Shown here: piece by piece, positions 6,265 to 61,468 of the stretch
Numbering within the stretch: position 1 is the first letter of the stretch
Layout of the letters: each line of letters starts with the position of its first letter
Origin: Chiloscyllium plagiosum
Taxonomy: Eukaryota
DNA: 62,000 nucleotides
Assembly (NCBI RefSeq): GCF_004010195.1
Contig: NC_057749.1
Location: forward strand, 11,127,745 to 11,189,744
Direction: 5' to 3'
Program-made: the position numbers and the translations under genes
Notes under the pieces: generated by a model
What the model was told of the DNA's origin: nothing
The model's database searches: none
The model's input: the letters and a program-made list of their open reading frames with translations, nothing else

Positions 6265-7665
6265 TAAGGACAGAACAACTAGGAGCAGGAGTAGGCTGTC
6301 TGGCCCTTCGAGCCTGCTCCACCATTCAATAAGATCATGGCTGATCTTTTTGTGGACTCAGATCCACTTACCAGAGCTCTCACCGTATCCTTTAATTCCT
6401 TTACTGTTCAATAAATATCTACCTTTGCTTTAAAAACATTTACTGAAGTAGCATCAACTCCTTCACTGGTCAGGAAATTCCATAGATTAACAACCCTCTA
6501 GGTGAAGAAATTCCTTCTCAATTCAGTCCTAAATCTGCTCCTGCTAATCTTGAGTCTATGCCCTCTTGTCCAAGCTTCACCTGCCAGTGGAAACATCCTC
6601 TCTCCTTCTATGTTATCTGTTCCCTTCATAATTTTATATATTTCTATAAGATCCCCCTCAATCTTCTGAATTCCAATGAATATAATCCTAATCTAATCAG
6701 TGTCTCCTCATAAACCAACCCCCCTCAACTCCGGAATCAACCTAATAAACCTCCTTTGCACCCCTCCAGTGCCAGTACATCCTTTCTCAAGTAAGGAGAC
6801 CAAAAGTGCATGCTGTACTCCAGATGTGGAGAAAGTGAGGTCTGCAGATGCTGGAGATCAAAGTTGAAACTTTATTGCTGGAACAGCACAGCAGGTCAGG
6901 CAGCATCCAGGGAACAGGAGATTCGACGTTTCGGGCACAGGCCCTTCTTCAGGAGGGCCTGTGCCCAAAACGTCGAATCTCCTGTTCCCTGGATGCTGCC
7001 TGACCTGCTGTGCTGTTCCAGCAATAAAGTTTCAACGTACTCCAGATGTGGCCTCATCAGCATCTTGTACAGCTGCAACATAATCTCTCTGCGTTTAAAC
7101 TCAATCCCTTTAGCAATGAAGGACAAAATGCTACTTGCCTTCCTAATTACTTGTACCTGCAGACCAACCTTCTGTGATTCATGCGCAAGGACACCCAGGT
7201 CCCTCTGCATAGCATCATGCTACAACTTTTTACCATTCAAATAATAATCATTTTTACTATTATTGTACAAAAACGTATGACTTCACATTTATTAACATTG
7301 TATTCCATCTGCCAGACCTTTGCCCACTCACTCAATGTATCTATGTTCCTCTGCAAAGTTTCACAGTTTTCTGCACACTTTACTCTGCTACTCATCTTAG
7401 TATCATCTGCAAACTTTGACACCTCACACATGGTCCCCAATTCCAAATCATCTATATAAATTGTAAATAATTGCGGTCTCAACACCAATCCCTGAGGCAC
7501 ACCACTAATCACTGATATCCAGTCAGAACAGCACTCATTTATCCCAACTCTTTGCTTCCTGTTAGTCAACCAATCCGCTATCCATGCTAATACTTTACCC
7601 CTAACGCCATAAATCCTTATCTTATGCAGCAGCCTCTTGTGCATCACCTTGTCAAGGCCTTTTGG
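6265..7665 (-). mobile_element. CR1 LINE 3' half, antisense
   Basis: Minus-strand GVPQG..PQLFTIYIDDL, SKFADDTK, RPHLEY. Confidence 0.88.
6830..7036 (-). mobile_element. Penelope-derived fold-back mini-element with hammerhead core
   Basis: 15-bp TSD gtactccagatgtgg (6815-6829 / 7037-7051); long inverted repeat; CTGAAGAAGGGCCTGTGCCCGAAACGTC on the minus strand. Confidence 0.88.
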
Positions 7666-18700: not shown

Positions 18701-19933
18701 GTGGTTCTCACTAATGGCATAAGGTCAGATAGTTTTAGTGTCGACAGAGGCTGCCGACAAGGTGCCCTCTCTCACCACTATTATTTACAGTGGTGATTGA
18801 ACCGCTGGCGGAGGCCATCCGGAGGGATCCCAACATAATTGCCCCAGAGGTAGGATCGGGCAGGCATAAAATTACCCTTACGCGGATGACATCCTTCTTT
18901 TCTTAACTGATCTAATGACAACTGTGCCCTGTTTAATATAAGTGATTAATCTATTTGTTCTCAGGGTACAAAATTAATTTCATGAAGTTGGAGGCCATGC
19001 CTGTGGGGGGCCTTACTAATATATCTGATTTTGGTGATGGAACCAGTTTCCCTTTCCGGTGGTCACAGGGAGGCTTCCTGTATTTAAGCATTTTATCATC
19101 CCGGTCTTCAATCAATTATATAAAGCTAATTATGCGCAATTGCGAGAGAAGATAAGGCAGAACCTTCGGCACTGGGAAGATCTTCCGATATGTTGGTTGT
19201 GAAGAATAGATCTGGTTAAAATGAATGTTCTTCCTCGCTTATTATATCTCGTGTGAATGCTCCCTTTGATGCTGCCAAGGAAGGACTACAGAGGCTTTAC
19301 AGCTGGTTCAGATCTTTTATCTGATGTCATAGGTGGCCGCTTATTAAGCTAGATAAATTGCAGCTCCGGCAGGAGAAGGGAGGTTTGGATTTCCCGGACT
19401 TTAAGAAATATCAATTGAATTCCTTACTATCTTATGTGGCTGACCGGGCCTGCCAGGACCTGCGATCAATCTGGTTGGACATTGAGGCCTCCCTGACAAA
19501 ATGCCCCTTCATCAATTTGCTATTTATGGACAAGATGAGGACTGTTACGGACCACTGCAGAAACCCAATTGTCCGTACCACAGTTAAAGCATGGAGAATA
19601 ATGCAGCAAGGTGAGGGCAACTTACAAAAAACTTCCCCTTTCACACCCATAGTGGGAATGTTGGGATTCTGGCCAGGTGGACTCTGGCTTTACGTTCTGA
19701 GAGTCGAGGGGAATCTCCCGTTTGGGAGATTTCTTTGATGGGGAGGTCATGATGTCTTTCGAGCAGCTAAGTCGGAAATTTGAGTGACCTAGGAGAGACC
19801 TCTTTTGTTACTTCCAGGTTAGGGACTTTATACAAAAAAAAACTGCATTGATGGTTAGTCCCTGTAAGTCGGATATGGAAAGGAGAGTGCTCCAGTCTAC
19901 GGGAACTCTCTCAGTCAGCACCCTCTATCACTT

Positions 19934-21214
19934 TCTGGATCAGTGTGCTGGAAGAGCACAGCAATTCAGGCAGCATCCGACGAGCAGCAAAATCGACGTT
20001 TCGGGCAAAAGCCCTTCATCAGGAATAAAGGCAGAGAGCCTGAAGCGTGGAGAGATAAGCTAGAGGAGGGTGAGGGTGGAGCTAGGCAGGTCGGACAAGT
20101 CCGCACTGTCCGCTTGACTTGTCCGGACTTGTCCGACCTGCCTAGCTCCTTTTCCACCTATCCACTNNNNNNNNNNNNNNNNNNNNNNNNNNNNNNNNNN
20201 NNNNNNNNNNNNNNNNNNNNNNNNNNNNNNNNNNNNNNNNNNNNNNNNNNNNNNNNNNNNNNNNNNNNNNNNNNNNNNNNNNNNNNNNNNNNNNNNNNNN
20301 NNNNNNNNNNNNNNNNNNNNNNNNNNNNNNNNNNNNNNNNNNNNNNNNNNNNNNNNNNNNNNNNNNNNNNNNNNNNNNNNNNNNNNNNNNNNNNNNNNNN
20401 NNNNNNNNNNNNNNNNNNNNNNNNNNNNNNNNNNNNNNNNNNNNNNNNNNNNNNNNNNNNNNNNNNNNNNNNNNNNNNNNNNNNNNNNNNNNNNNNNNNN
20501 NNNNNNNNNNNNNNNNNNNNNNNNNNNNNNNNNNNNNNNNNNNNNNNNNNNNNNNNNNNNNNNNNNNNNNNNNNNNNNNNNNNNNNNNNNNNNNNNNNNN
20601 NNNNNNNNNNNNNNNNNNNNNNNNNNNNNNNNNNNNNNNNNNNNNNNNNNNNNNNNNNNNNNNNNNNNNNNNNNNNNNNNNNNNNNNNNNNNNNNNNNNN
20701 NNNNNNNNNNNNNNNNNNNNNNNNNNNNNNNNNNNNNNNNNNNNNNNNNNNNNNNNNNNNNNNNNNNNNNNNNNNNNNNNNNNNNNNNNNNNNNNNNNNN
20801 NNNNNNNNNNNNNNNNNACATGGAGGTCCTGGGCCTCCTTCACCGCCGCTCCCTCACCACCAGACGCCTGGAGGAAGAACGCCTCATCTTCCGCCTCGGA
20901 ACACTTCAACCCCAGGGCATCAATGTGGACTTCAACAGCTTCCTCATTTCCCCTTCCCCCACCTCATTCTAGTTTCAAACTTCCAGCCCGCACTGTCCCC
21001 TTAACCTGTCCGGACTTGTCCGACCTGCCTAGCTCCACCCCCACCCTCCTCTAGCTTATCTCTCCACGCTTCAGGCTCTCTGCCTTTATTCCTGATGAAG
21101 GGCTTTTGCCCGAAACGTCGATTTTGCTGCTCGTCGGATGCTGCCTGAATTGCTGTGCTCTTCCAGCACCACTGATCCAGAATCTGGTTTCCAGCATCTG
21201 CAGTCATTGTTTTT
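19934..21214 (+). mobile_element. Penelope element (5'-inverted PLTR, N gap, GIY-YIG-domain C-terminus, 3' PLTR) inserted in the L1
   Basis: 14-bp TSD accctctatcactt; VLGLLH..RRLEEERLIFRLGTLQPQGIN at 20825-20925; inverted terminal repeat. Confidence 0.88.
21087..21123 (+). ncRNA. Minimal type-I hammerhead ribozyme in the Penelope PLTR
   Basis: CTGATGA-A-GGGC TTTT GCCC-GAAA-CGTC core with stem II hairpin and palindromic ACGT stem III. Confidence 0.75.
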
Positions 21215-22191
21215 ACCCTCTATCACTTGTTAAGAAGTAATGTTACGAAAGACATTGAGAGGCTATGCAGAATCTGAACTCAAGAACTGGCAGTGGAAAT
21301 CTCATCAGCGATATGGGAGGATATTTAGGAGCACGTTTGGAAGATTTTGATTTGTAACAGGATCAACTGAAGATACTCCACAGGAGTTATTTGGCACTGA
21401 AATTCAAGACAGGAGTGTCCCCAGTGTGCCCCAAATGTGAAAGGGATGTTGGCACTCTTACCTATTGCTTGTGGTCATGCACAAGCTTCACAGGTATTGG
21501 GATGCCATAATGAGCGTTTTGGAAGAAGTTTTAGGAACTAAGGTTAAGTTGGATCCGGTGTCCCTCCTTTTGGGTCTTCCAAATCTCCCCTTTTTGGACG
21601 TGCATGGAAAGAAATTGCTTAATATTCTTTCATTTTGTCAGAGGAAGAAAATTCTAATGAGCTGGGTGTCAGAGAATCCCCCAGGACCTTCAGGCTGGCA
21701 TAGTTTAGTTATGGAGCACATCCCCCTGGACTTCCTTACAAGTATGGTGAACCAGAAAATGGAACTGTTTCACAGAACATGGCGGCCCTTTCTGAATTAT
21801 ATTGAAAGAGACTTGTTGGCTATATTGATCAGGGCCTTTGTGTAGTCATGAGTGCTATGTCTGGCGGTCTGGGAGGAAGAATCCTGAATAAATACGGGTT
21901 TGCTTACTAATGCTCCCAGTGGTGGGGTGCTTCGGTGGGATTGCGATGTGTCTAGTAACTTAATTGAATATAATTTGTTACCTTTATGTTTTTTTTTTCC
22001 TTTAGTCATTTATTGAATTGTAGTTTCTGTAAGTTTTTTTTTCTCTCTCATTTCAGTGATTCGTGGGGTAGGAGTTTGTTTCCTGTTATTGTCATTATAT
22101 TATAAAGTTGTCACACTAATTTGTAATGATTTTGTAATTTTGTAAAAAACCTAAACTCTTTTTCTCAATAAAAATATTTACAATAAAAAAA

Positions 22192-25144: not shown

Positions 25145-25595
25145 TTTAAAAATTCATTCATGGGACGTTGGCACTGCTGGCTAAGCCAACATGTATTGCC
25201 CATCCGGGGCAGTTAAGAGTCAGCTACATTGCTGTGGGTCTGGAGTCGCATGTTGTCCAGACCAGGTAAGATGGCAGTTTCCTTCCTCCTAAAGGACATT
25301 TAAAAGACATTTAGATACGTACATGAGTAAGAAATGTTTGGAGCGATATGGGATATGGGCCAAGTGCACACAAGTGGAACTAGTCGCATAGTCTGGACTG
25401 AAGGATCTGCTTTCATGCTAGTGAATCAGACGGGCTTTCTGACAACCAAAAATTGATTCATAGTCATCATTAGACTCTTGATTCCAGGTTTTTATTGAAT
25501 TCAAATTCCATCATCTGCCATGGCAGATCTGCAGCACAGTATCTGTATCTCTAGATTAATAGCTTAGTGATAATACCATTAGGCTATTGCCTTGC
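25145..25595. repeat. Interspersed repeat (aattcattcatggga..ccaggtaaggatggcagtttccttc..), with a related copy at ~50880-51200
   Basis: Two similar copies within the window; family not identified. Confidence 0.55.
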
Positions 25596-26654: not shown

Positions 26655-27462
26655 TAACATAGAAATGTACAGCACGGAAACAGACCCTTTGGTCCAATGC
26701 GTCCATGCCGACCAGTTATCCCAACCTACTCTAGTCTCTTTTGCCAGCACTTGGCCCATATTCCTCCAAACCTTCCCATTCACATACCCATCTAGCTGCG
26801 TTTTAAATATTGCAATTGTACCAGCCTCCACCACTTCCTCTGACAGCTCATTCCATTCACGTACCACCCTCTGAGGGAACAAGTTGCCCCTTAGGTCTCT
26901 TTCATATCTTTCCCCTCTCACACTAAACCTATGCCCTCTCATTCTGGACTCCCCCACCCCAAGGAAAAGACTTTGTCTATTTATCCTATCCATACCCCGC
27001 ATGTTTTTATAAACCTTGATAAGGTCACCCCTCAGCCTCTGATGCTCCAGGAAAAACAGCCCCCGTTATTCAGCCTCTCCCTGTAGCTCAAATCCTCTAA
27101 CCCTGGCAACCTCCTTGTAAATCTTTTCTGAACCCTTTCAAGTTTCACAACATCCTTCCGATAGGAAGGAGACCAGAATTTCACGCCATATTCCAACAGT
27201 GGCCTTACCAATGTCATGTTCAGTTGCAACATGACCTCTCAATGCCTATACTCAAAACTCTGACCAACAAAGGAAAGCATACCAAACGCTGCCTTCATTA
27301 TCTTACCCACCTGCCACTCTACTTTCAAGGAGTTACGAATCTGCACTTCAAAGTCTCTTTGTTCAGCAACTCTCCCTCGGACCTTACCATTAAGTGTACA
27401 AGTCCTGCTAAAATTTGCTTTCCCAAAATGCAGCACCTCGCGTTTATCTAAATTAAACTCCA
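26655..27462 (-). mobile_element. CR1 3' fragment, antisense
   Basis: FNLDK.EVLHFG, RPLLEY..FWSP, RGHRFSVRG. Confidence 0.88.
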
Positions 27463-27529: not shown

Positions 27530-30500
27530 GTTACACATTGGAATCTAATCGAGAGGGTTCTGGGTGATTCATATAATCGCGACAGTGGGGAAACAAGCCC
27601 TTCAGCCCAATAAGACCACACTGACCCTCAGAAGAATAACCCATCCAGAGTCATTTCCCCACATTTACCCCTGACTAATGCACCTCATCTACACATCCCT
27701 GAACACTGTGGGCAATTTTAACAGGGTTTGGATTGGATGGTTAATATATAGAATAACAGATACCCAGGAGTGTGATACAGACTAGAATCTAATCAAAGGA
27801 TTGAGGTGGCTAATGTACAGAGTCCCTTAAAAATGGAAGTCAGTTACAGATTGGAATTTTATCAAGGGGATTCGGGATGATTATGTGTAGAATAACAGAT
27901 ACCCAGGACTGAGCTGCAGACTGCAGTCAAATTGAGCGGGATTGGGTGATTTATAGACAGCAACGGGATACGAGAGGGAAGAAAGCAGAGGAGAAAGTAC
28001 CCACCATGGACCAACTCAAAAATGAGCTGATCCAGACAGGATTCAACTGCTGTATGTGGAGGTTTCCAGGTGTTCTGAAAGATGGGAGAGAAACAGGCAG
28101 ATACTCACACTTTCTATGATGTTGCAGTCAACTTGCTGAAGGACAGGGAATCGCTAATCAGAGACGCAGAGTTAAACTCAGTTTAAAAACTCTCTCCATC
28201 ACACACACACCCACACATAGGAACTAAATATAATGTGGAGAAATATCCATGTGCAGCATAGATTTCCAAACTAACTCAATGACAGACGAAAATCCCCGTT
28301 CTCTGCCCAGTCCACTCTTCCAGACACAGGGAGGTTTTGTACCTGAGGGAGGGAAGGTTTCTGACTGGATATTATTACACTGCAACATGTAGGTACTGAG
28401 TGTAACAGTTTGCTACATACCATCATGCCATCTACTTTGCTGTCAGTGTTTTTTGAATTGTATTTAAATCATTGGCAGGTGGAACAGCATATACTGGAAC
28501 GTGATTTGCAGGGGGAATAGAAAAAGCACAATGTTTGTGTTTAAAATGGTGAGAAATTCTGAAACGGTATTGTCCAGGGGGGTTTGGCTGATCTTGTACA
28601 TAAACATCTGAAAGTTAACATGGTGGTAGAGCCAGCAGATAGGAGGGCAAGTGATACATTGACTGTTCTTGCCAGGAGGTTTTGCTAGGAATAAGAGTTT
28701 AACACGACAGGGATTGAGTTACAGACTGGAATCTAATCAAGGGGTTCAGGGTGTTTTATATACAGAATAACAGATCCCCAGGAGTGAGTTACACATTGGA
28801 ATCTAATCGGGTGGTTTCCGAGTGTTTCATATCATCCATCAGTGGGTAACAAGTCCTTCAGCCCAACAAGACCACACTGACCCTCAGAAGAATACCCATC
28901 CAGACCCATTCCCCACATTTACCCCTGACTAATGCACCTCACCTACATATCCCTGAACACTATGGGCAATTTTAACAGGGTTTGGATTGGATGCTTAATA
29001 TACAGAGCTGAAAATGTGTTGCTCAAAAAGCACAGCACGTCAGGCAGCATCCAAGGAGCAGGAGAATCGACGTTTCGGGCATAAGCCCTTCTTCAGGAAT
29101 CATGAGCCCTTCTTCCTGACCTGCTGCGCTTTTCCAGCAACACATTTTCAGCTCTGATCTCCAGCATCTGCAGTCCTCACTTTCTCCTGTTAATATACAG
29201 ACCAACAGATACCCAGGAGTGCGAGTTTGGAATCTAATCAAAGGATTGAGGTGGCTAATGTACAGAGTTCCTTAAAAATGGAAGTCAGTTACAGATTGGA
29301 ATTTTATCAAGGGCATTCGGGACGATTATGTGTAGAATAACAGATACCCCGGAGTGAGTTACAGCCTGGAATCTAATCGAGGGTTTCAGGGTGGTTTATA
29401 TACAGAATAACAGGTAGCCCGCGTGAGTTAAAGTCTGGAATCTAATCTAGGGGTTCAGTGTGGTTTATGCACAAAATAACAGATGGCCCGGAGTGAGTTA
29501 CAGCCTTGAATCTAATTGAGGGGTTCAGGGTGGTTTATATGCAGAATAACAGATACCCCAGAGTGAGTTACAGCCTGGAATCTAATCGAGGGGTTCAGTA
29601 TGGCTTATGTACAAAATAATAGATAGCCTGGAGTGAGTTTAAGCCTGGAATCCAATCAAGGGGTTCAGTGTGGTTTATATACAAAACAACATATACCCCA
29701 AAGTGAGTTACAGACTGGCATCTAATCGAGTGGTTCAGGGTGGTTTATATACAGAATAACAGATACCCCGGAGTGAGTTACAGCCTGGAATCTAATCGCG
29801 GGGTTCTGGGTGGTTTATATACAGAATAACAGATAGCCCGTCGTGAGTTACAGCCTGAAATCTAATTGAAGGGTTCAGGATGGTTTATATACAGAATAAC
29901 AGATACCCCAGAGTGTGTTACAGCCTGGAATCTAATCAAGGGTTATGTGAAGCTTTTTATGTGGAATAGCTTGAAACTAGGAGGGAGTCACAAAGTGGTT
30001 TCAAATCTTAATTCACATAAATGTAATGCAGTCACAAACTACACGACTTTACTGACTCCCCACGGTCCTAGATTGAAGACTATCCTCCTCTGTTTTCCCC
30101 TTTCACTGAAGATATTTATATACCTTTTATAATGTACTGCCATTCTGATTACAGTGCTGCCTATCTCTCACTGTCTCATTTATCCTGTTGAAAGACACTG
30201 AAACCAACAGACACACAAAGTTCCAGAAAGAGCTTTGTTTAATTGCAGGTGCATTATTTTCTTTTATTTGTAGACAACACACAATTTGAACTCACAGAAG
30301 GTCAGTGTGGGATTTGAGAAACCCTTGAAATTGGGATAAGGCCTAGCCAGGCGGGTTTCTGATCCAACGCTGCAAATCTACAATTCAGTGGCTGAGCTAT
30401 TTCAGGTTTTGTATATTATGTTTCTCTCATATATTAGGAAAGTAAGTCAGACTTTACTGGAATGTCACATTATCTCTCTGCATTCACTGTTCACAGGTTC

Positions 30501-31370
30501 TGGGATTTGCATTTTAATCACCTTCTCCATTTTCTATCTCTGCTAGCATCAATGAATGGAATTGGCTTTTAACACATTGCCCCCTCTCCCTTGCTGAAAG
30601 TATTCCTGACACAAATCAGTCAGGCAGACATCTTAGATTTGTCCACAGCCACCATTTTAAATCAGCACAGCGATGACATTGAGTTTATAAATAAGGAAAA
30701 GCAAGAGAGACTGGCAACATCAATACAGTTTGAAAATATTTAACATTGAACTCGCACACAGAATCACACACGAACAGACAAAAACAGACACAGAATCAAA
30801 CACACAGAGATACAAACACCTTCAAAGAGCTGTCTCCATTTCCTATCTTGCAAGGGAATTCATGTTTTGACAATGCATTCATGCAAGACAGTAAACAGCT
30901 TTTGAGACTTTCCCCATTGCGACAGAAATTCAGCCCCATTCTGAAACTTGGAGAAATGTAACAGAACAGAAATGAACCAGCAGCTTTCTGTGTTCCTGCT
31001 CCCAATGTAACATTTGACCATTCAGTTTATCTTATCTTCAGTCTAACATCCAACAAGAATCACTTCACAGATCCAATAACAGATCCCCAGGAGTGAGCTA
31101 CAGACTGGAATCTAATTGAGGGGTTTATGGTTTATATACAGAATAACAGATACCCATGAGTGAGTTACAGACTGGAATCTAATCGAGGGGTTTAGGGTTT
31201 ATATACAGCATATCAGATACCCAGGATTGAGGGACAGACTGGAATCTAATTGAGGGGTTTAGGGTTTATATACAGCATATCAGATACCCAGGAGTGAGGG
31301 ACAGACTGGAATCTAATTGAGGGGTTCAGGGTGGTTTACTTACAAAATGACAGGTAACAAGGAGTGAGTC
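27530..31370. repeat. ~70-bp satellite-like repeat (cagatacccnggagtgagttacagnctggaatctaatcgaggggttcagggtggtttatatacagaataa): arrays at ~29330-29945 and ~31075-31370 plus dispersed units
   Basis: Period of 70 nt counted directly (e.g. 29341 to 29411). Confidence 0.9.
29007..29189. mobile_element. Penelope-derived fold-back mini-element
   Basis: 12-bp TSD ttaatatacaga; hammerhead core on the minus strand; ctgcagtcctcactttctcc tail. Confidence 0.85.
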
Positions 31371-39699: not shown

Positions 39700-42600
39700 C
39701 AGGTGTTATCAATTCTAGAAGGAGTGAATGTAGACAAGCCCCCTGTGCCGGATGGGATTTATCCGAGGATTCTCTGGGAATCTATGGAGGAGATAGCAGA
39801 GCCTTTGGCTTTGATATTTGAGTCGTCATTATATACAGGTTTAGTTCCTGAGGACTGGAGGATTGCAAATGTTGTGCCCTTGTTCAAGAAGAGCAGTAGG
39901 GATGACCCAGGTTATTATAGACTAGTGAGCCTTACTTCTGTTGTAGGAAAGGTTTTGGAAAGAATTATGAGAGATAAGATTTATAATCATCTAGCAAGCA
40001 ACAATTTGATTTCAGATAGTCAACATGGTTTCATCAAGGGCAGGTCGTGTCTTACAAACCTCATTGAGTTTTTTGAGAAGGTGACCAAGCATGTAGATGA
40101 GGATAGGAAAGTTGACGTGGTATACATGGACTTCAGTAAAGCCTTTGATAAGGTTCCACATGGTAGGCTGTCGGAGAAAATGCAGAGGAATGGAATTGAG
40201 GGTGATATAGCAGTTTGGATTAGAAACTGGCTTTCTGAAAGAAGGTAGCGAGTGATGATTGATGGAAAATATTCAGCCTGGAGTCCGGTTACTACTGGTG
40301 TGCCACAAGGATCTGTTTTGGGACCACTGCTATTTGTCATTTTTATAAATAACTTAGATGCAGGCATAGGTGGATGGATTAGTAAATTTGCAGACGACAC
40401 TAAAGTCAGTGGAGTAGTGGACAGTGTGGAAGAATGTTACAGGTTGCAGGAGGACTTGGATAAACTGCAGAGTTGGGCTAAAAGGTGGGAAATTGAGTTC
40501 AGTGTAGCTAAATGTGAGGGGATGCACTTTGGGAAGAATAACAGGAAGGCAGAGTACTGGATCGATGGAAAGATTCTTGGTAGTGTGGATATACATAGGA
40601 ATCTTGGAGTCCATGTACATAGATCCCTAAAAGTTGCCACCCAGATGGATAGTGCTGTTAAGAAGGCATAAAGTGCGTTAGGTTTCATTCGTAGAGGGAT
40701 TGAGTTCCGGAGCCGCAATATCATGCTGCAACTATACAAAACGCACTTGGAATATCGTGTACACTTCTGCTCCCCATAATTCGGGAAGGATGTGGAAGCA
40801 CTGGAAAAGGTGCAGAGGAGATTTACCAGGATGTTGCCTGGTCTGGAGGGAAGGCCTTGAGGAAAGGCTGAGAGACTTGGGTCTGTTCTCATTGGAAAGA
40901 AGAAGGCTAAGGGGGGATTTGATAGAGACATACAAGATAACTAGGGAGAGAATAGGGCCCCTCAAAGATCAGCAAGGTGGCCTTTGTGTGGAGCCACAGA
41001 AAATGGGGGAGATATAAATGAATATTTTGCATCAGTATTTACTGTGGAAAAGGATATGGAAGATATAGACTGTAGGGAAATAGATGCAGACATCTTGCAA
41101 AATGTTACAGAGGAGGAAGTGCTGGATGTCTTGAAACGGTTAAAGGTGGATAAATCCCCACGACCTGATCAGGTGTACCCTAGAACTCTGTGGGAAGCTA
41201 GAGAAGTGATTGCTGGGCCTCTTGCTGAGATATTTGCATCATCAATAGTCACAGGTGAGGTGCCAGAAGACTGGAGATTGGCAAATGTGGTGCCACTGTT
41301 TAAGAAGGGCAGTAAAGACAAGCCAGGGAACTATAGACAGGTGAGCCTGACCTCGGTGGTGGGCAAGTTGTTGGAGGGAATCCCGAGGGACAGGATGTAC
41401 ATGTATTTGGAAACTTCTTCAGTTCCTGAAGAAGGGCTCATGCCCGAAACGTCGATTCTCCTGCTCCTTGGATGCTGCCTGACCTGCTGAGCTTTTCCAG
41501 CAACACATTGTCAGCTCTGATCTTCAGCATCTGCAGTCCTCACTTTCTCCATGTATTTGGAAAGGCAAGGACTAATTCAGGATAGTCAACATGGTTTTGT
41601 GCGTGGGAAATCATGTCTCACAAACTTGATTGAGTTTTTTGAAGAAGTAACAAAGAAGAATGATGACAGCAGAGCAATAGATGTGATCTATATGGACTTC
41701 AGTAAAGCATTCGACAAGGTTCCCCATTGGAGACTGATTAGCAAGGTTAGATCTCATGGAATACAGGGAGAACTAGCCATTTGGATACAGAACTAGCTCA
41801 AAGGTAGAAGACAGTGGGTGGTGGTGGAGGGTTGTTTTTCAGACTGGAGGCCTGTGACCAGTGGAGTGCCACAAGGATCGGTGCTGGGCCCTCTATTTTT
41901 TGTCATTTACATAAATGATTTGGAAGAAGGAATAAGAGGTACAGTTAGTAAGTTTGCAGATGACACCAAAATTGGAGGTGTAGTGGACTACAAAGAGGGT
42001 TACTCCAGATTACAACAGGATCTGGACCAAATGGGCCAATGGGCTGAGAAGTGGCAGATGGAGTTTAATTCAGATAAATGCGAGGCGCTGCATTTTGGGA
42101 AAGCAAACAGGACATGACTTATACACTTAATGGTAAGGTCCTAGGGAGTGTTGCAGAACAAAGAGACCTTGGAGTGCAGGTGGGGTCGCAGGTAGATAGG
42201 ATAGTGAAGAAGGCGTTTGGTATGCTTTCCTTTATTGGTCAGAGTATTGAGAACAGGAGTTGGGAGGTCATGTTGCGGCTGTACAGGACACTGTTTAGGC
42301 CACTGTTGGAATATTGCATGCAATTCTGGTCTCCTTCCTATCGGAAAGATGTTGTGAAACTTGTAAGGTTTCAGAAAAGATTTACAAGGATGTTGTAAAG
42401 GGAGAGGCTGAACAGGCTGGGGCTGTTTTCCCTGGAGCATCGGAGGCTGAGGGATGACCTTATAGAGGTTTACAAAATTATGAAAGGCATGGATAGGATA
42501 AATAGACAAAGTCTTTTCCCTGGGGTCAGGGAGTCCAGAACTGGAGGGCAAAGGTTTAGGGTGAGAGGGGAAAGATATAAAAGAGACCTAAGGGGCAACT

Positions 42601-48324: not shown

Positions 48325-48956
48325 ATGTGTTGCTGGAAAAGCTCAGCAGGTCAGGCAGCATCCAAGGAACAGGAGAATCGACGTTTCGGGCATAAGCCCT
48401 TCTTCAGGAATGAGGAAAGTGTGTCCAGCAGGCTAAGATAAGATAAAAGGTAGGGAGGAGGGACTTGGGGGAGGGGCGTTGGAAATGCGATAGGTGGAAG
48501 GAGGTCAAGGTGAGGGTGATAGGCCGGAGTGGGGTGGGGGCGGAGAGGTCAGGAAGAAGATTGCAGGTTAGGAAGGCGGTGCTGAGTTCGAAGGATTTGA
48601 CTGAGACAAGGTGGGGGGAGGGGAAATGAGGAAACTGGAGTCAAATCCCTCGAACTCAGCACTGCCTTCCTAACCTGCAATCTTCTTCCTGACCTCTCCG
48701 CCCCCATCCCACTCCGGCCTATCACCCTCACCTTGACCTCCTTCCACCTATCGCATTTCCAACGCCCCTCCCCCAAGTCCCTCCTCCCTACCTTTTATCT
48801 TATCTTAGCCTGCTGGACACACGTTCCTCATTCCTGAAGAAGGGCTTATGCCCGAAACGTCGATTCTCCTGTTCCTTGGATGCTGCCTGACCTGCTGCGC
48901 TTTTCCAGCAACACATTTTCAGCTCTGATCTCCAGCATCTGCAGTCCTCACTTTCT
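48325..48956. mobile_element. Penelope-derived long fold-back (~300-bp arms) inserted in ERV2 RNaseH
   Basis: 15-bp TSD caccgatagcagata; near-perfect inverted arms; hammerhead core on each strand. Confidence 0.9.
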
Positions 48957-53791: not shown

Positions 53792-53885
53792 GTTGAAACT
53801 TTATTGCTGGAACAGCACAGCAGGTCAGGCAGCATCCAGGGAACAGGAGATTCGACGTTTCGGGCACAGGCCCTTCTTCAGGAAT
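53792..53885 (-). mobile_element. Penelope PLTR half-arm next to a CR1 stub and an N gap (53951-54603)
   Basis: Matches the 6830-7036 arm. Confidence 0.75.
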
Positions 53886-54921
53886 AAGGTTCCTCATTGT
53901 AGATTAATGGAGAAAGTGAAGTCACATGGTGTGCAGGGTGTTCTAGCTAGNNNNNNNNNNNNNNNNNNNNNNNNNNNNNNNNNNNNNNNNNNNNNNNNNN
54001 NNNNNNNNNNNNNNNNNNNNNNNNNNNNNNNNNNNNNNNNNNNNNNNNNNNNNNNNNNNNNNNNNNNNNNNNNNNNNNNNNNNNNNNNNNNNNNNNNNNN
54101 NNNNNNNNNNNNNNNNNNNNNNNNNNNNNNNNNNNNNNNNNNNNNNNNNNNNNNNNNNNNNNNNNNNNNNNNNNNNNNNNNNNNNNNNNNNNNNNNNNNN
54201 NNNNNNNNNNNNNNNNNNNNNNNNNNNNNNNNNNNNNNNNNNNNNNNNNNNNNNNNNNNNNNNNNNNNNNNNNNNNNNNNNNNNNNNNNNNNNNNNNNNN
54301 NNNNNNNNNNNNNNNNNNNNNNNNNNNNNNNNNNNNNNNNNNNNNNNNNNNNNNNNNNNNNNNNNNNNNNNNNNNNNNNNNNNNNNNNNNNNNNNNNNNN
54401 NNNNNNNNNNNNNNNNNNNNNNNNNNNNNNNNNNNNNNNNNNNNNNNNNNNNNNNNNNNNNNNNNNNNNNNNNNNNNNNNNNNNNNNNNNNNNNNNNNNN
54501 NNNNNNNNNNNNNNNNNNNNNNNNNNNNNNNNNNNNNNNNNNNNNNNNNNNNNNNNNNNNNNNNNNNNNNNNNNNNNNNNNNNNNNNNNNNNNNNNNNNN
54601 NNNGTGTGTGTGTGTGTATACGTGTGTGTGTGAAACAGAAAGAGAGTGGGTGTGTGTGTATGTGTTGTGTGGGGAGGGGATAATTTATTCAACACTCAGA
54701 GACCTTTATCTGATCATTGACGCACATGGAAGACAGTACCGTTCAGCACTGATGCACTCTGAATTAGCGTGACTCACTACTTGAACCCTGAACGCTGATT
54801 TACAATATTGTGGGCAAAATGCCTCTTTAGAAAGTTCTAATCTGGGTTGATACCCCAGTGTAGTCCTGAGCAGGGGTGTGCAGTCAGAGGCGAATTGTTA
54901 AGAAAAAAGGTCGCATCTATC

Positions 54922-55235
54922 TGGCATGGTAGCTCAGTGGTTAGCACTGCTGTCTCACAGCACCAGGGTATTGCATTTGATTCTACCGTTGGGCGACAGT
55001 ACATTCTCCCCATGTCTGTGTGGGTTTCCTCTGGGTGCTCAGGTTTCCTCCCACAATCCAAAGACATGCAGGGTACGTGAACTGGTCATGCTAAATTGTC
55101 ATAATGTTCAGGTTAGGTGCATTAGTCACGGGTAAGTATAGGATAATAGGATAGGGGAATGGATCTTCAGAAGATTGGTGTGGATTTGTTGAGCTGAAGG
55201 GCCTGTTTCCACACTGTAGGGATTCTATGATTCTA
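54922..55235 (+). mobile_element. HE1-type SINE inserted into an older Deu-domain SINE (~54836-55450)
   Basis: A/B boxes and attctatg tail; flanking ggagtt..cctggagtcctgaccaat..ttgctgtttgtgggagctt resembles the Deu core. Confidence 0.75.
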
Positions 55236-55548
55236 TCCTCTCAAGTGGAGGGAGAAGATACCATAGCACAATTTTAAAGAATAGTAAGGGAGTTAACCCT
55301 GGAGTCCTGACCAATCAACATTGCAAAAGCAGGTCACTTGGCAACTATCATATTGCTGTTTGTGGGAGCTTATTGTGCCCTGTTTCATTGGCTGAGTAAA
55401 AAAAATTTCATTGACCGTAATGAGCCTTGCTGAGGTTCATACAAATGTGACTTTCTTTCTTTATGTATTCTATTTATTCATTAACAACTTCACTGAGGGG
55501 TGGCACTACAAACAATCCATCTCTACCTTAATGATATTGTTGCATTAC

Positions 55549-55680
55549 CTTGTAAGATTGACACCCAAATCTTCCCATCGCAGATATAAAGGTCTTTCTT
55601 GAAAACATCAAACCAGAGACGGCTGGCTTCAGTCTCAGTGCAGGGTGGGTGGCTTCCAATTGTCACCTTCATGTCTGTTT
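55549..55680 (-). CDS. TSPEAR: TSPEAR or TSPEAR-like internal exon, 132 bp, phase 1-1: (E)TDMKVTIGSHPPCTETEASRLWFDVFKKDLYICDGKIWVSILQ
   Basis: aaatcag|AA...CAAG|gtaatg; resembles recalled human [44 protein letters not shown], the linker before the EAR repeats. Confidence 0.85.
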
Positions 55681-55769
55681 CTGATTTCAACACAAGAGGA
55701 GATCAACAACGTTCGTATTTACCAGAGACGAGTCATTGAGTTAGACACTGTGTGGCTTCACTATGGCTA

Positions 55770-56115
55770 GGAGAAAGTGAGGTCTGCAGATGCTGGAGAT
55801 CAGAGCTGAAAATTTCATTTCCCCTCCTCCCACCTTGTCTCAGTCAAATCCATCGAACTCAGCACCGCCTTCCTAACCTGCAATCTTCTTCCCGACCTCT
55901 CCGCCCCCACCCCAGTCTGGCCTATCACCCTCACCTTGACCTCTTTCCACCTATCACATTTCCGACGCCCCTCCCCCAAGTCCCTCCTCCCTACCTTTTA
56001 TCTTAGCCTGCTGGACAAACTTTCCTCATTCCTGAAGAAGGGTTTATGCCCGAAACGTCGATTCTCCTGTTCCCTGGATGCTGCCTGACCTGCTGCGCTT
56101 TTCCAGCAACACATT
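55770..56115. mobile_element. Penelope PLTR fragment with hammerhead core at ~56031-56060
   Basis: CTGAAGAAGGGTTTATGCCCGAAACGTC; same family as 48325-48956. Confidence 0.85.
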
Positions 56116-56149
56116 CCAATCCAGTGAGGGAAGTTGGAAGATTTAAGCT

Positions 56150-56650
56150 GCTATCTTTTTGACGAGAGCCTACTAAGTGAAGGCCTGTCTGTCCTCTAAT
56201 GTAGACATAGAAGAGCCAATGGCACTATTTTTAATAAGAGTTATAGATACATAGAAAACACAGTAAGATTTCATGCACAGAAGGTAGTCGTCTGGCACAT
56301 TATGTCCATACCAGTCGATGAATACCTCGTCACACTAATCCCACTCTCCAAATTTTGATTCCTAAACCCATTGACTGTTCCACCGCATGTTTTAATGTGA
56401 TTATGGTTTTTGCCTGTATTACCCTTTGAACTCGTGGGTTCCAGAACCTCACCACTGATGAGAAAGTTGTTCCAGGTGTCATAGTCAATATTTTTTCAAT
56501 AATTAGTACAGCATTTCTTTTTGTGGGAGCTTGCTACATGTAAATTGCCTGCTATGTGTCAACACTGACTGTACTTCCAAAGTACTTTATTGGCTGTAAA
56601 GCATTTTGGATCTTTCTGTGGCCATAACAGTTACTATATAAATGCAATTT
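56150..56650 (+). mobile_element. Old Deu-domain SINE remnant (SacSINE/AmnSINE-like), interrupted
   Basis: ggcactattt..aagag; tttgtgggagcttgct..aagtactttattggctgtaaagcatttt..ctatataaatgcaa. Confidence 0.65.
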
Positions 56651-57520
56651 AATTTTAATAACTCAATAGTTACTCATAGAAATCTAATGTTATATCACTG
56701 GGATGCTTTTTTGCCATTATTATGGCAATAATGTTTTTTTCAAATTTAAAAAAAAGTTATGATATTTCAGCTACTTTAATCCCATGTGTATCACTGATGA
56801 TTTGTATTTACTCTGTGGAAATTTTAATTGAGTAGAAGATTTTACTGCATTTTACTTTCTGATTTGCTGTTTGAGAATACTTCAGTGTAATTGGCTGCCA
56901 ACTCCCTGCGGTGATATCACTGTTACTGTATGCCTAGTGTTTGTCTTGATCTTGCACATATCAAGAAAGGGAAACTTCATGCCTCAGAGATCACTAGATA
57001 GCAGAAAATCCCTTTAATACTTCAAAGTACTCTTTTGGTATGATCCTAGATATTGAATATTGTTAGATATTATTACTGGAGCGAATCATAGATTTACATT
57101 TAAATAGTTCCCATTTCTGTCTTTGTTCACTCCTTTCCTCAGCAATATTTTGTGTTTGATTTTGTCTACTTTCTGTGGTTTTATTTACCCTAATGAAGAA
57201 GAGCATATCTTCTCAACATCACAACTATTGATCTCACCCTGCTTGGCTGTTGTATGGAACCCCCTACGTGTTAACCCCTTAAAGCCAAATACATAACAAT
57301 ATTGTCAAATTTGATGGAATTTTAATGCATTTACTTTAGGGGAAATTTGGCATGTTAATATGCTGCAGTTTTTCTTATCTGCGATGTTTTGTGTTATGTT
57401 GCTGAAAATATTACTGATGAAATACTTAGCAGTTGTAGTAAAATCATGCGTATACTTAGGATGAAGAAGATTATGAGTACCACATATGCTTGGTCCAGTT
57501 CTTGTTGGATTCATTTGGAT

Positions 57521-57965
57521 ATCAAAGTTGAAACTTTATTGCTGGAACAGCACAGCAGGTCAGGCAGCATCCAGGGAACAGGAGATTCGACGTTTCGGGC
57601 ACAGGCCCTTCTTCAGGAATGAGCAGAGAGTGTTCAGCAGGAGAAGATAAAAGGTAGGGAGGAGGGACTTGGAGGAGGGGCGTTGGAAATGTGATAGGTG
57701 GAAAGAGGTCAAGGTGAGGGTGATAGGTGGGAGTAGGATGGAGGCGGAGAGGTCAAGAAGAAGACATTTCCAACTCCCCTCCTCCAAGTCCCTCCTCCCT
57801 ACCTTTTATCTTCTCCTGCTGAACACTCTCTGCTCATTCCTGAAGAAGGGCCTGTGCCCGAAACGTCGAATCTCCTGTTCCCTGGATGCTGCCTGACCTG
57901 CTGTGCTGTTCCAGCAATAAAGTTTCAACTTTGATCTCCAGCATCTGCAGACCTCACTTTCTCCT
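57521..57965. mobile_element. Penelope-derived fold-back element with hammerhead cores on both strands
   Basis: Inverted arms; ATTC-CTGAAGA-AGGGCCTGTGCCC-GAAA-CGTC-GAAT at ~57836-57871; 3' tail. Confidence 0.88.
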
Positions 57966-60544: not shown

Positions 60545-61468
60545 TCACAAGGAGGAGGTGTTAGCAATTCTGGAAAGTGTGAAAATAGATAAGTCCCCTG
60601 GGCCGGAGGGATTTAGAGCTGAAAATGTGTTGCTGGAAAAGCGCAGGAGGTCAGGCAGCATCCAAGGAGCAGGAGAATCAACGTTTCGGACATGAACCCT
60701 TCTTCAGGCTCAATTCTCAATTTCTCAGGAGAAACGTCAATTCTCCTGCTCCTTGGATGCTGCCTGACCTGCTGCGCTTTTCCAGCAACACATTTTCAGC
60801 TCTGATCTCCAGCATCTGCAGTCCTCACTTTCTCCTCCCGGATGGGATTTATCCTAGGATTCTCTGGGAAGCCAGGGAGGAGATTGCAGATCCTTTGGCT
60901 TTGATCTTTATGTCATCATTGTCTTCAAGAATAGTACCAGAAGACTGGAGGATAGCAATGTTGCCCCCTTGTTCAAGAAGGGAAGTAGAGACAACCATAG
61001 TAATTATAGACCAGTGAGACTGACTTCTGTTGTGGGTAAAGTGTTGAAAAAGGTTAGAAGAGATAGGATTTATAATCATCTATAAAGGAATATAGTATTA
61101 CAGCTGTGGAAAGGACGATGGATGAAGACTCGCCATCTGAGGTAGTTTGGGCTGAGGTTAGGAATAGGAAAGGTGAGTTCACCCTGTTAGGAGTTTTTTA
61201 CAGGCCTCCTAATAGTCCTAGAAACGTAGAAGAAAGGATTGCGAGGATGATTCAAGACAAGAGTGAAAGTAATAAGATGGTTGTTATGGGGGCTTTAACT
61301 TTCCTGATATTGATTGGGAAAGCTAGAGCTCAAGTTCATTAGATGGGTCAGTGTTTGTCCAATGTGTGCAGGAGGGTTTCCTGACACAATATGTAGATAG
61401 GCCAACAAGAGGTGAGGCCATACTGGATTTGGTTCTGGGTAACGAACCAGGCCAGGTATTAGAATTGT
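60545..61468 (+). mobile_element. CR1 fragments (pre-RT segment, then endonuclease segment)
   Basis: DKSPGP, GIYPRILWEAR; VWAEVRNRKG..GVFYRPPNS. Confidence 0.8.
60616..60837. mobile_element. Penelope-derived fold-back mini-element
   Basis: TSD ccgga(t)gggattta; inverted arms plus tail. Confidence 0.85.

What the first reader, a model, noticed from the sequence alone, without database searches (positions are those of the whole stretch)
6830..7036. Family of tiny fold-back retroelements built around a hammerhead ribozyme (about nine copies in 62 kb)
Seen: non-coding insertions at 6830-7036, 29007-29189, 41414-41550, 48325-48956, 53792-53885, 55770-56115, 57521-57965 and 60616-60837, plus the coding copy at 19934-21214. 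All carry a CTGA(A/T)GA-A-GGGC-N4-GCCC-GAAA-CGT(C) core, intact or slightly degenerate, and most are long inverted repeats. They sit inside other TEs with clean TSDs, so they are among the youngest insertions. Established: Penelope-like elements carry minimal hammerheads in their PLTRs. Inference: these are either routine truncated PLE insertions or a self-propagating retrozyme/MITE-like non-autonomous family, which would seed ribozyme and dsRNA hairpins into host pre-mRNA.
Basis: partly seen in the sequence, partly recalled or inferred. Interest (0 to 1): 0.7.

Follow-up and report, generated by a model that had tools for sequence, protein, structure and literature searches.

The report
Hammerhead-bearing Penelope retroelement fold-back copies
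These short, often hairpin-shaped insertions are tail-end copies of Penelope-like jumping genes that carry a small self-cutting RNA motif, a known kind of element, but one of them is the end-piece of a very young passenger element of about 300 copies that the same machinery appears to be spreading through this shark-type genome.

Summary
The window has 12 hammerhead-type cores against 0.44 expected, and the genome has 92,517 against 0 for the control. The copies have 12-15 bp target duplications and head-to-head inverted arms. They are 3'-end copies of Penelope-like elements (PLEs) with the published minimal hammerhead. This scan reached the same verdict on other windows of this genome.

The tiny fold-backs are not a retrozyme- or MITE-like family.
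- Junctions differ from copy to copy: at least 20 forms among 23.
- Every assessable pair has exactly one arm with the 30-40 nt "tail": 25 of 25.
- Junctions cluster at the 5' edge of the ribozyme in all three subfamilies.
- No short direct tandems were seen.

New here:
- Arms end sharply at an A four bases before the CUGA box. A TATA-like box lies 32 nt upstream, so these may be run-off copies of short pLTR transcripts.
- Window 53792-57965 is one 4.2-kb composite insertion with its own duplication. Its non-coding body recurs 298 times, with no mismatch in any copy listed or scored, and copy number falls toward the 5' end (298, 91, 42, 2). Its fold-back junction is shared by 199 copies.

Verdict: known kind, with a new non-autonomous member.

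The parts
6830..7036 (-). Tight fold-back of subfamily a. The tailed arm is 6830-6954 on the minus strand, with a complete hammerhead core at 6928-6952. The tail-less arm is 6951-7036 on the plus strand and starts inside the core at GGGCC. The 15-bp duplication GTACTCCAGATGTGG lies at 6815-6829 and 7037-7051.
19934..21214 (+). Longer copy of subfamily c. It has an inverted tail-less arm at 19934-20106, then a sense copy from 20107 whose coding part is withheld (N 20167-20817). The last 50 codons of the ORF are at 20820-20969, with the stop at 20970-20972. The hammerhead is at 21092-21119 and the tail runs to 21214. The 14-bp duplication ACCCTCTATCACTT lies at 19920-19933 and 21215-21228.
29007..29189 (+). 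Fold-back of subfamily b. The left arm is tail-less, on the minus strand, with its core at 29072-29096. The right arm is tailed, at 29112-29189, and starts about 22 nt after the cleavage site. The 12-bp duplication is TTAATATACAGA.
41414..41550 (+). Short tailed copy of subfamily b with its core at 41426-41450. A 9-nt inverted stub (CTTCTTCAG) precedes it. The 13-bp duplication is ATGTATTTGGAAA.
48325..48956 (+). Large fold-back of subfamily b. The tail-less arm is 48325-48602 (core 48383-48407, minus strand). A 36-nt centre follows, then the tailed arm 48639-48956 (core 48834-48858). The 15-bp duplication is CACCGATAGCAGATA. The centre junction is unique in the genome.
53792..57965 (+). One composite non-autonomous insertion of 4174 bp, flanked by the 13-bp duplication TGAATTTTCTTTA.
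53792..53885 (-). Left terminal inverted arm of the composite. It is 94 nt and tail-less, starts at the upstream reverse-transcription site (GTTGAAAC) and ends exactly at the A four bases before the CUGA box. Core at 53857-53881.
53886..57520 (+). Body 'X' of the composite. The visible part has no ORF longer than 92 aa and is AT-rich. 53951-54603 is withheld. It contains older repeats, including the carried PLE fragment at 55770-56115.
55770..56115 (-). Older subfamily-b PLE fragment carried passively inside X. It has a 42-nt inverted piece that is essentially only the tail (55772-55813) and a 274-nt tail-less arm (55842-56115; core 56032-56056, stem II with a G-U pair).
57521..57965 (+). Fold-back 3' module of the composite. 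The antisense arm is 57521-57763 (core 57592-57616, minus strand). The sense arm is 57764-57965, with the hammerhead at 57840-57867, the putative RNA start A at 57836, and the tail to 57965. The centre junction at 57740-57779 is shared by 199 genomic places.
60616..60837 (+). Older fold-back of subfamily b. The tail-less left arm has a decayed core (60683-60707, GGGTTCATGTCC). The centre holds 22 nt of filler. The tailed right arm is 60731-60837. The duplication is imperfect, about 13 bp.

Best explanation
These are 3'-end copies of Penelope-like retroelements (PLEs) of three subfamilies. I call them a, b and c, after loop 2 (CTGT, TTAT/TCAT, TTTT) and core position 7.

Each full arm carries the minimal type-I hammerhead of metazoan PLEs:
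- helix I, AUUC/GAAU
- the CUGA-N-GA box plus one extra A
- a 4-bp helix II
- GAAA
- a loop-less, self-complementary ACGU that can form helix III only between two RNAs
- a GUC cleavage site

Proposed mechanism (inferred from anatomy plus published in-vitro work):
1. The PLE protein cuts both target strands 12-15 bp apart.
2. The two DNA ends each prime reverse transcription on PLE RNA, at two adjacent internal sites. One start includes the 30-40 nt tail and the other does not.
3. Both cDNAs run toward the RNA 5' end. One then jumps onto the other.
4. The result is a head-to-head inverted repeat with one tailed and one tail-less end.

Most templates are probably short transcripts that start at an initiator-like A four bases before the CUGA box of a pLTR. 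That would explain the mass of 95-130 nt units and the tight palindromes centred on the ribozyme's 5' edge. The ribozyme is a passenger of the template. Cleaved RNA does not seem to be copied.

Any RNA that ends in a PLE 3' arm can be copied in trans. A transcript made of about 3.6 kb or more of ordinary non-coding DNA followed by a fold-back PLE copy has been amplified to about 300 copies, with no mismatch in any listed or scored copy. Window 53792-57965 is one of them.
For: PLE identity
- The last 50 codons upstream of the subfamily-c hammerhead match residues 409-455 of a 486-aa shark protein (68% identity, pairwise E 4e-17).
- That protein has weak RVT_1 and GIY-YIG matches in that order.
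- PLE ORF pieces also abut two composite copies: 71-78% identity over 45-51 aa.

Hammerhead
- Among subfamilies the 32-nt ribozyme segment is 91-94% identical. All differences fall at position N7 and in loop 2. The flanks are 59-77% identical upstream and 70-86% downstream.
- A 40-nt RNA starting at the putative start folds as helix I plus helix II (-7.2 kcal/mol).
- The extra base after A9, G10.1-C11.1 and a palindromic 15.2-16.2 are the published hallmarks of PLE minimal hammerheads (PMC4209133, main text read).

Insertion signature
- Among adjacent arm pairs in the window plus 58 loci, 44 are head-to-head and 6 tail-to-tail.
- Of the 44, 25 could be scored at both ends, and all 25 have one tailed and one tail-less end. 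None has two tails or none. Two of the 25 are the same structures carried in a second composite copy.
- All 7 pairs in the window obey the rule.
- Published work reports inverted 5'-truncated copies and a tail at one end (PMC8557442 passages). It also reports that a purified PLE protein extends both strands from two start sites that bound the tail (PMC11167929 main text).

Arms are made by a second priming event, not by snap-back
- The left arms of composite copies are PLE 3' arms, although the adjacent sequence is X.

De novo junctions
- The 48325 junction is unique in the genome. The left junction of the C1 composite copy is also unique.
- The 23 tight fold-backs show at least 20 junction forms in a zone of about 15 nt, in all three subfamilies.

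Sharp 5' boundary
- 49 of 156 arms start 0-8 nt before the core, and 5 of 156 start at the cleavage site.
- Genome-wide, 42,729 cores are preceded by ATTC but only 23,334 by CTCATTC.
- TTTTATCT or TTATCT starts 32 nt before that A in three of the four copies examined (subfamilies a, c and one b copy); the other b copy has it at -37 and -29.

Composite family
- 2888 nt are 99.93% identical to a copy on another contig that has its own 14-bp duplication.
- 40 of 40 scored places are 100% identical over 1351 nt, out of 432 candidates.
- 40-mer counts fall with distance from the 3' end: 298, 91, 42, 2.
- The visible body has no ORF longer than 92 aa.
Against: - There is no RNA or biochemical evidence. 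Cleavage, the transcription start and the two-primer order of events are all inferred.
- Rfam's hammerhead models do not score the motif at all, even on 81 nt at E up to 10.
- The centre junction of the 6830 copy recurs in 24 places, plus 30 places with two neighbouring variants. In the 11 copies inspected the tail is on either arm: 4 left, 7 right. A small propagating mini-lineage is therefore not excluded.
- The window copy and one copy on contig 16 share the left arm and its junction but have different flanks. An inverted arm can thus be inherited end to end, which the simple model does not predict.
- Composite copies carry at least four different centre junctions. I can only explain these by sub-lineages or centre deletions.
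- The sample was chosen on intact cores from one 1.86-Mb stretch, and BLAST boundaries are good only to about 2-3 nt.
- The autonomous partner could not be examined, because coding stretches are withheld.
Confidence: 0.8

Rival explanations
1. The tiny fold-backs are a self-propagating non-autonomous family (retrozyme- or MITE-like). A master fold-back is transcribed, perhaps from either strand, and copied as a unit.
For: The 6830-type junction recurs in 24 places, with two neighbouring variants in 14 and 16 places. The 11 copies inspected are near-identical, have independent duplications, and carry the tail on either side. The 57521 fold-back junction is inherited in 199 places. One left arm with its junction is shared by two copies.
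Against: - Junctions of the same geometry recur in subfamilies a, b and c, which cannot share a master. The 23 tight fold-backs show at least 20 forms.
- The 48325 junction is unique.
- No transcript of a fold-back carries two sense ribozymes, so unit excision and circularisation as in retrozymes cannot occur.
- No short direct tandems were seen among 68 cores, nor in the window's tandem-repeat scan.
- The ends are asymmetric (tail or no tail) and duplications vary between 12 and 15 bp, unlike MITEs.
Confidence: 0.12
2. Fold-backs arise by snap-back. A single first-strand cDNA reaches the RNA 5' end, folds on itself and self-primes the second arm, which stops short of the tail.
For: Tight palindromes have 0-28 nt centres, exactly one tail per insertion, and centres at a fixed RNA end.
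Against: In composite copies the inverted arm is a PLE 3' arm of 94, 120 or 140 nt, although the neighbouring sequence is X. It therefore cannot be a copy of the adjacent cDNA. Some 'arms' consist of the tail alone, 31-42 nt. In vitro, the Anolis PLE protein extends both strands (PMC11167929).
Confidence: 0.2
3. The sharp boundary four bases before the CUGA box is not a transcription start. It is a block or dissociation point for the reverse transcriptase at the folded or protein-bound ribozyme.
For: In the composite, the 94-nt arm ends there although the composite RNA continues upstream. Tailed arms often stop a few bases inside the core.
Against: A structural block should stop the enzyme before it enters the ribozyme, not after it has copied it. 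The boundary coincides with an initiator-like YYA(+1)TTCC, and a TATA-like box starts at -32 in three of the four copies examined, one from each subfamily. In Drosophila Penelope the pLTR holds the start site (PMC8557442 passage).
Confidence: 0.3
4. The X-bearing copies are segmental duplications or a DNA transposon that merely contains PLE debris.
For: Listed and scored copies show no mismatch and are dispersed over many contigs.
Against: - Homology stops exactly at PLE start sites at both ends.
- Each of the three copies with both ends seen has its own 13-14 bp duplication.
- Copy number falls monotonically toward the 5' end.
- The 5' junctions differ between copies and join to PLE arms or PLE ORF pieces.
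Confidence: 0.03

Closest known systems
Insertion units of endonuclease-positive Penelope-like elements: pLTR, adjacent inverted 5'-truncated copy, 30-40 bp tail at one end (Craig et al. 2021, PMC8557442, passages read; Evgen'ev and Arkhipova 2005 and Arkhipova 2006, recalled, not read)
   Same: Heavy 5' truncation, head-to-head inverted copies, a tail on one end only, variable target duplications, a hammerhead in the terminal repeat, and an ORF ending in a GIY-YIG-type C-terminus.
   Different: The copy number is very high (92,517 intact cores). About three quarters of the sampled CTGAAGA-type cores (34 of 45) lose homology within a few bases of the ribozyme's 5' edge. No direct partial-tandem pLTR could be confirmed in the window, because the coding part is withheld.
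Minimal hammerheads of metazoan PLEs (Cervera and De la Pena 2014, PMC4209133, main text read; dimer cleavage by small variants, Lunse et al. 2017, recalled, not read)
   Same: Type-I layout with no loop 3, palindromic 15.2-16.2, an extra base between A9 and G10.1, G10.1-C11.1, and a short helix I. The 2014 paper already notes pairs of motifs 100-700 bp apart on opposite strands.
   Different: Helix II here is only 4 bp, against 7-8 bp in the Schistosoma families. There are about ten times more motifs than the roughly 9,000 reported for Xenopus. Activity was not tested here.
Two internal reverse-transcription start sites and extension of both strands by the Anolis Poseidon protein (Frangieh et al. 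2024, PMC11167929, main text read)
   Same: Genomic ends fall at two positions about 30-40 nt apart that bound the tail. Ribozyme cleavage appears dispensable as a source of templates.
   Different: Here each insertion uses one site of each kind (25 of 25). The paper saw no strand difference in vitro. The genomic rule is an observation, not a biochemical result.
Non-autonomous PLE derivatives: Chlamys MRC1-type elements that share only the 3' end with autonomous families (PMC8557442 passage), and animal non-LTR retrozymes (PMC7229834, abstract only; Li et al. 2026 preprint, abstract and passages)
   Same: A non-coding body mobilised through a PLE-derived 3' end that contains a hammerhead.
   Different: There are no tandem units and no paired sense ribozymes, so a circular RNA route is not possible. 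The 3' module is a 177-bp hairpin that would bury the ribozyme. The body is ordinary genomic DNA with old repeats.
L1 5' inversions by twin priming, and composite or transduction-borne non-autonomous retroposons such as SVA (recalled, not read)
   Same: Both target strands prime, giving an inverted 5' part. A foreign sequence hitch-hikes on a retroelement 3' end.
   Different: In twin priming the inverted part is a different, more 5' segment of the RNA. Here both arms copy the same 3' segment from two fixed start sites.

Membership tests
Hammerhead ribozyme (minimal type I of PLEs) | Conserved core C3 U4 G5 A6 N7 G8 A9 ... G12 A13 A14, A15.1-U16.1, and H17 not G | tested here: met
   CTGA(A/T)GA ... 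GAAAC GTC is present in 12 window arms. Differences between subfamilies fall only at N7 and in loop 2.
Hammerhead ribozyme (minimal type I of PLEs) | Helix II closed by G10.1-C11.1, a short helix I, an extra base after A9, and a palindromic 15.2-16.2 without loop 3 | tested here: met
   GGGC-N4-GCCC, AUUC/GAAU, an extra A, and ACGU. These match the published hallmarks.
Hammerhead ribozyme (minimal type I of PLEs) | Recognition by curated covariance models (Rfam hammerhead families) | tested here: not met
   No hammerhead hit at gathering score, at E up to 10 on the whole window, or at E up to 10 on 81 nt around the motif. This may be because the motif has no loop-closed helix III (my inference; the Rfam models were not inspected).
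Hammerhead ribozyme (minimal type I of PLEs) | Self-cleavage after H17 | not testable with these tools
   Indirect only: arm 5' ends do not pile up at the cleavage site (5 of 156).
Penelope-like element (endonuclease-positive) | A single ORF with a reverse transcriptase followed by a C-terminal GIY-YIG endonuclease | tested here: inconclusive
   The coding part is withheld in the window. The visible last 50 codons match the C-terminus of a shark protein whose RVT_1 match (16.4 bits, cut-off 29.6) and GIY-YIG match (21.7 bits, cut-off 22.6) are both below cut-off but in the right order.
Penelope-like element (endonuclease-positive) | Insertion anatomy: 5' truncation, inverted 5' copy, tail at one end, variable duplication | tested here: met
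Retrozyme (non-LTR, animal) | Tandem direct units, each with a sense hammerhead, allowing excision and circular RNA | tested here: not met
   The hammerhead pairs in the window lie on opposite strands. Among 68 sampled cores, same-strand neighbours are at least 1.1 kb apart. The 26 'direct' pairs are mostly split alignments of one copy, and none showed two cores in direct order. No hammerhead-bearing tandem array appears in the window.
MITE / fold-back DNA transposon | Symmetric terminal inverted repeats, a duplication of fixed length, and ends defined by a transposase | tested here: not met
   One end carries a 30-40 nt tail and the other does not (25 of 25). Duplications are 12-15 bp. The ends coincide with PLE reverse-transcription start sites.
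Non-autonomous PLE-mobilised element (composite X family) | No coding capacity, a 3' end shared with an autonomous PLE, PLE-type ends and duplications, and a 5'-truncation profile | tested here: met
   The withheld 653 nt inside X could not be read.

The most novel reading that the evidence does not exclude
A PLE 3' arm is a portable replication module. The enzyme primes both target strands at two fixed sites on it. Any transcript that ends in such an arm is then copied and capped at its 5' side with a fresh inverted arm, even if the arm is buried in a 177-bp hairpin that silences the ribozyme. On this reading, a composite of ordinary non-coding DNA plus a fold-back arm is at present, or was very recently, one of the most active elements in this slowly evolving shark-type genome. 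It has about 300 copies, with no mismatch in any listed or scored copy. The tens of thousands of 'tiny hammerhead elements' would be run-off copies of short promoter-proximal pLTR transcripts, not truncation products.
Probability: 0.4. Interest if true: 0.55.

Novelty: new member of a known kind. Interest (0 to 1): 0.35.

Why it matters
The hammerhead motifs and fold-backs themselves are textbook PLE debris. They should not be reported as a new class.

The value lies in three regularities drawn from natural insertions:
- There is exactly one tailed end per insertion.
- The tail-less arm usually runs to a fixed RNA end, while the tailed arm often stops short.
- The inverted arm is always a copy of the PLE 3' end, whatever lies next to it.

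Together these constrain the still unsolved integration mechanism of PLEs. They agree with the single in-vitro study.

The young composite family shows that a vertebrate PLE can mobilise foreign RNA in trans at scale. It gives a natural, easily traced marker for recent activity. It also scatters about 200 long perfect hairpins through the genome, which are potential sources of double-stranded RNA where they are transcribed.

Tried and rejected
- **Rfam.** No hammerhead family was found at any threshold. The only sizeable hits were plant microRNA-precursor models on the long hairpins at 48465-48775 and 57629-57826. All were below gathering score and are artefacts of perfect hairpins.
- **Expression.** The search for sequencing runs listed no RNA holder. 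Nothing can be said on transcripts, RNA ends, editing, small RNAs or circles.
- **Cleaved RNA as template.** Rejected as the main route, because 5' ends do not pile up after GUC (5 of 156 against 49 of 156 just before the core). The sample was chosen on intact cores, which biases against such copies.
- **Splice acceptor at the boundary**, as in Drosophila Penelope. Rejected, because no AG precedes the boundary in any subfamily.
- **Retrozyme and MITE readings.** See the membership tests.
- **Segmental duplication for the composite.** Rejected, because each copy has its own flanks and duplication.
- **X as the coding body of an autonomous PLE.** Rejected for the visible 2.9 kb. In addition, the sequence after the tail-less site is not the PLE tail.
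- **Earlier notes of this scan** hold nothing on X.
- **Literature.** I found no description of such a composite, or of shark PLE fold-backs, in three searches (listings and abstracts only). This is not exhaustive. The supplementary figures of PMC4209133 and PMC11167929 were not read and may bear on vertebrate motif families and RNA ends.
Full report
**1. Observation**

The pattern CTGAWGA..GAAAC occurs 12 times in the 62-kb window, against 0.44 expected; 0 of 100 shuffles reached 12. Six intervals are inverted repeats with arms of 45-286 nt at 89-99% complementarity.

The flanks printed show direct duplications of 15, 14, 12, 13 and 15 bp, plus one imperfect one of about 13 bp.

The window is part of a 3.56-Gb assembly. 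There the strict core CTGAWGAAGGGC-N4-GCCCGAAACGT occurs 46,257 + 46,260 times, and the reversed control 0 times.

Four stretches of the window read N. One of them, 20167-20817, covers almost all of the 'coding copy'.

**2. What the elements are**

The last 50 codons before the subfamily-c hammerhead (20820-20969) match residues 409-455 of a 486-aa uncharacterised shark protein. Identity is 68%; the database E-value is 5e-7 and the pairwise E-value 4e-17. That protein gives sub-threshold RVT_1 and GIY-YIG matches in that order. This is the order that defines endonuclease-positive Penelope-like elements.

Three subfamilies are present. They differ in loop 2 and in core position 7. Among 68 sampled cores, 9 are a, 36 are b and 23 are c.

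The 32-nt ribozyme segment is 91-94% identical between subfamilies. All differences fall at N7 and in loop 2, the positions a hammerhead leaves free. The 60 nt upstream are 59-77% identical and the 66 nt downstream 70-86%.

The layout is the minimal hammerhead described for metazoan PLEs (PMC4209133): an extra A after A9, G10.1-C11.1, a 4-bp helix II, a loop-less self-complementary ACGU, GUC, and a 4-bp helix I.

Rfam's hammerhead models do not recognise it at any threshold. I record this as a failed membership criterion. It may follow from the missing loop 3.

**3. Genome sample**

I fetched all 68 strict cores in the first 1.866 Mb of contig 1. I compared them with each other and with three natural window copies.

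The sample is chosen on intact cores from one region, and boundaries are good to about 2-3 nt.

- 26 of the 68 cores lie in fold-backs: 20 tight and 6 wide.
- Among adjacent arm pairs no more than 300 nt apart, in the window plus 58 loci, 44 are head-to-head and 6 tail-to-tail. A further 26 are 'direct', nearly all split alignments of one copy.
- Of the 44 head-to-head pairs, 25 could be scored at both outer ends. All 25 have one end with the terminal 30-40 nt tail and one without. None has two tails or none. The other 19 were interrupted.
- Two of the 25 are the same structures carried in a second copy of the composite.

This matches the published description of PLE insertions, with an inverted 5'-truncated copy and a tail at one end (PMC8557442). 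It also matches the in-vitro finding that a purified PLE protein cleaves and extends both strands and starts at two internal sites that bound the tail (PMC11167929).

**4. Are the tiny fold-backs a family?**

- The centre junction of the 48325 copy is unique in the genome.
- The junction of the 6830 copy is not unique: 54 places within two mismatches. Of these, 24 have the same junction, and 14 and 16 have two neighbouring variants.
- Eleven copies inspected each have their own flanks and duplications. The tail is on the left in 4 and on the right in 7.
- In the sample, 23 tight fold-backs show at least 20 junction forms. All lie within about 15 nt at the 5' edge of the ribozyme, in subfamilies a, b and c. 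The same geometries recur across subfamilies that cannot share a master.

I therefore read the recurrences as products of two hot positions, not as a propagating mini-element. A small lineage is not excluded.

Retrozyme and MITE readings fail on defining features. There are no direct tandem units, only one sense ribozyme per transcript, asymmetric ends, and duplications of variable length.

**5. The 5' boundary**

- Of 156 arms that reach at least 40 nt past the cleavage site, 49 start 0-8 nt before the core. Only 5 start in the five positions just after the cleavage site.
- At single-base view, at least ten solo copies begin exactly at the A of ATTC-CTGA.
- Genome-wide, 42,729 CTGAAGA-type cores are preceded by ATTC but only 23,334 by CTCATTC. 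That is a 45% loss over three bases.
- That A sits in an initiator-like YYA(+1)TTCC. TTTTATCT or TTATCT starts 32 nt upstream in three of the four copies examined, including one of each subfamily; the fourth, a b copy with a 5-nt duplication, has it at -37 and -29.
- The A is also the first base of helix I. A 40-nt RNA from it folds as helix I plus helix II.

I infer that most templates are short transcripts starting there. A reverse-transcriptase stop is the rival explanation.

In tight fold-backs the tail-less arm reaches the boundary in 19 of 23 cases, and the tailed arm in only 10 of 23 (my count). This fits a leading and a trailing cDNA on one template.

**6. The composite**

The 13-bp TGAATTTTCTTTA flanks 53792...57965. 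Inside are:
- a 94-nt tail-less inverted arm
- 3.6 kb of AT-rich DNA ('X') with no visible ORF longer than 92 aa
- an older carried PLE fragment
- the 57521-57965 fold-back

A second copy on contig 1 is 99.93% identical over 2888 nt. It has its own 14-bp duplication, a 120-nt arm, and X truncated 1.2 kb further in. Its left junction is unique.

A 1351-nt piece of X has 432 candidate places. All 40 that were scored are 100% identical.

Counts of 40-mers, allowing up to two mismatches, fall with distance from the 3' end:

| Distance from 3' end | Places |
|---|---|
| 0.5 kb | 298 |
| 2.5 kb | 91 |
| 3.2 kb | 42 |
| 4.1 kb | 2 exact |

At 4.1 kb, the other 232 hits belong to an older repeat.

The fold-back junction occurs 199 times. 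Six X copies without it show three other centre junctions, and either a tailed or a tail-less right end.

Left ends vary:
- the same 94-nt arm and junction, with new flanks, on contig 16
- a 140-nt tailed arm where the right end is tail-less, with a 13-bp duplication
- PLE ORF pieces in direct orientation in two copies

These features are those of PLE-type retrotransposition of a foreign RNA that ends in a PLE arm. They also show that the inverted arm is templated by a PLE 3' end and not by the neighbouring sequence. In this RNA the ribozyme would be buried in a hairpin of -367 kcal/mol.

**7. Comparison and verdict**

The hammerhead, the fold-backs, the tail and the opposite-strand motif pairs are all in print. 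Earlier agents of this scan reached the same verdict on other windows of this genome.

Non-autonomous PLE derivatives are also known (the 2026 preprint).

What I did not find in three literature searches (listings and abstracts only) is:
- a vertebrate composite of this kind
- the strict one-tail count
- the start-site reading of the tiny units

No expression data could be obtained.

I class the finding as a new member of a known kind, of modest interest.

Noticed in passing
window 29334-29942 and 31075-31332: Two arrays of a 67-70 bp tandem repeat, 8.7 and 3.9 copies at 83-92% matches, just downstream of the 29007 fold-back.
   Followed up: no
window 53890-53929: The 5' end of X belongs to an older repeat family. 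There are 232 genomic places with 1-2 mismatches to this 40-mer and only 2 exact. The adjacent 653 nt are withheld.
   Followed up: partly
L078/L080/L082 centre junctions and L086 (contig 1 copies): The region about 170-230 nt upstream of the subfamily-a hammerhead contains the reverse complement of a 28-nt piece of the PLE ORF. That piece corresponds to residues about 214-223 of the shark protein. It could be a chimeric junction or a natural internal inverted repeat; this is unresolved.
   Followed up: partly
window 48465-48775 and 57629-57826: The long perfect hairpins score up to 118 bits against plant microRNA-precursor models, below gathering score. This is a trap for automatic miRNA annotation.
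   Followed up: partly
window 54905-55135: A stretch inside X looks like a tRNA-derived SINE (GGTAGCTCAGTGGTTAGCAC...). The label is from recall. No Rfam hit was listed there.
   Followed up: no
window 25350-25383 / 26731-26764: A 34-nt inverted repeat, 76% complementary and 1.3 kb apart, unrelated to the hammerhead copies.
   Followed up: no
window 21095-21148: In subfamily c the ATG inside CTGATGA opens only a 17-codon frame in this copy. In the Anolis element the ORF is reported to begin at helix II. Subfamilies a and b have no ATG there.
   Followed up: no
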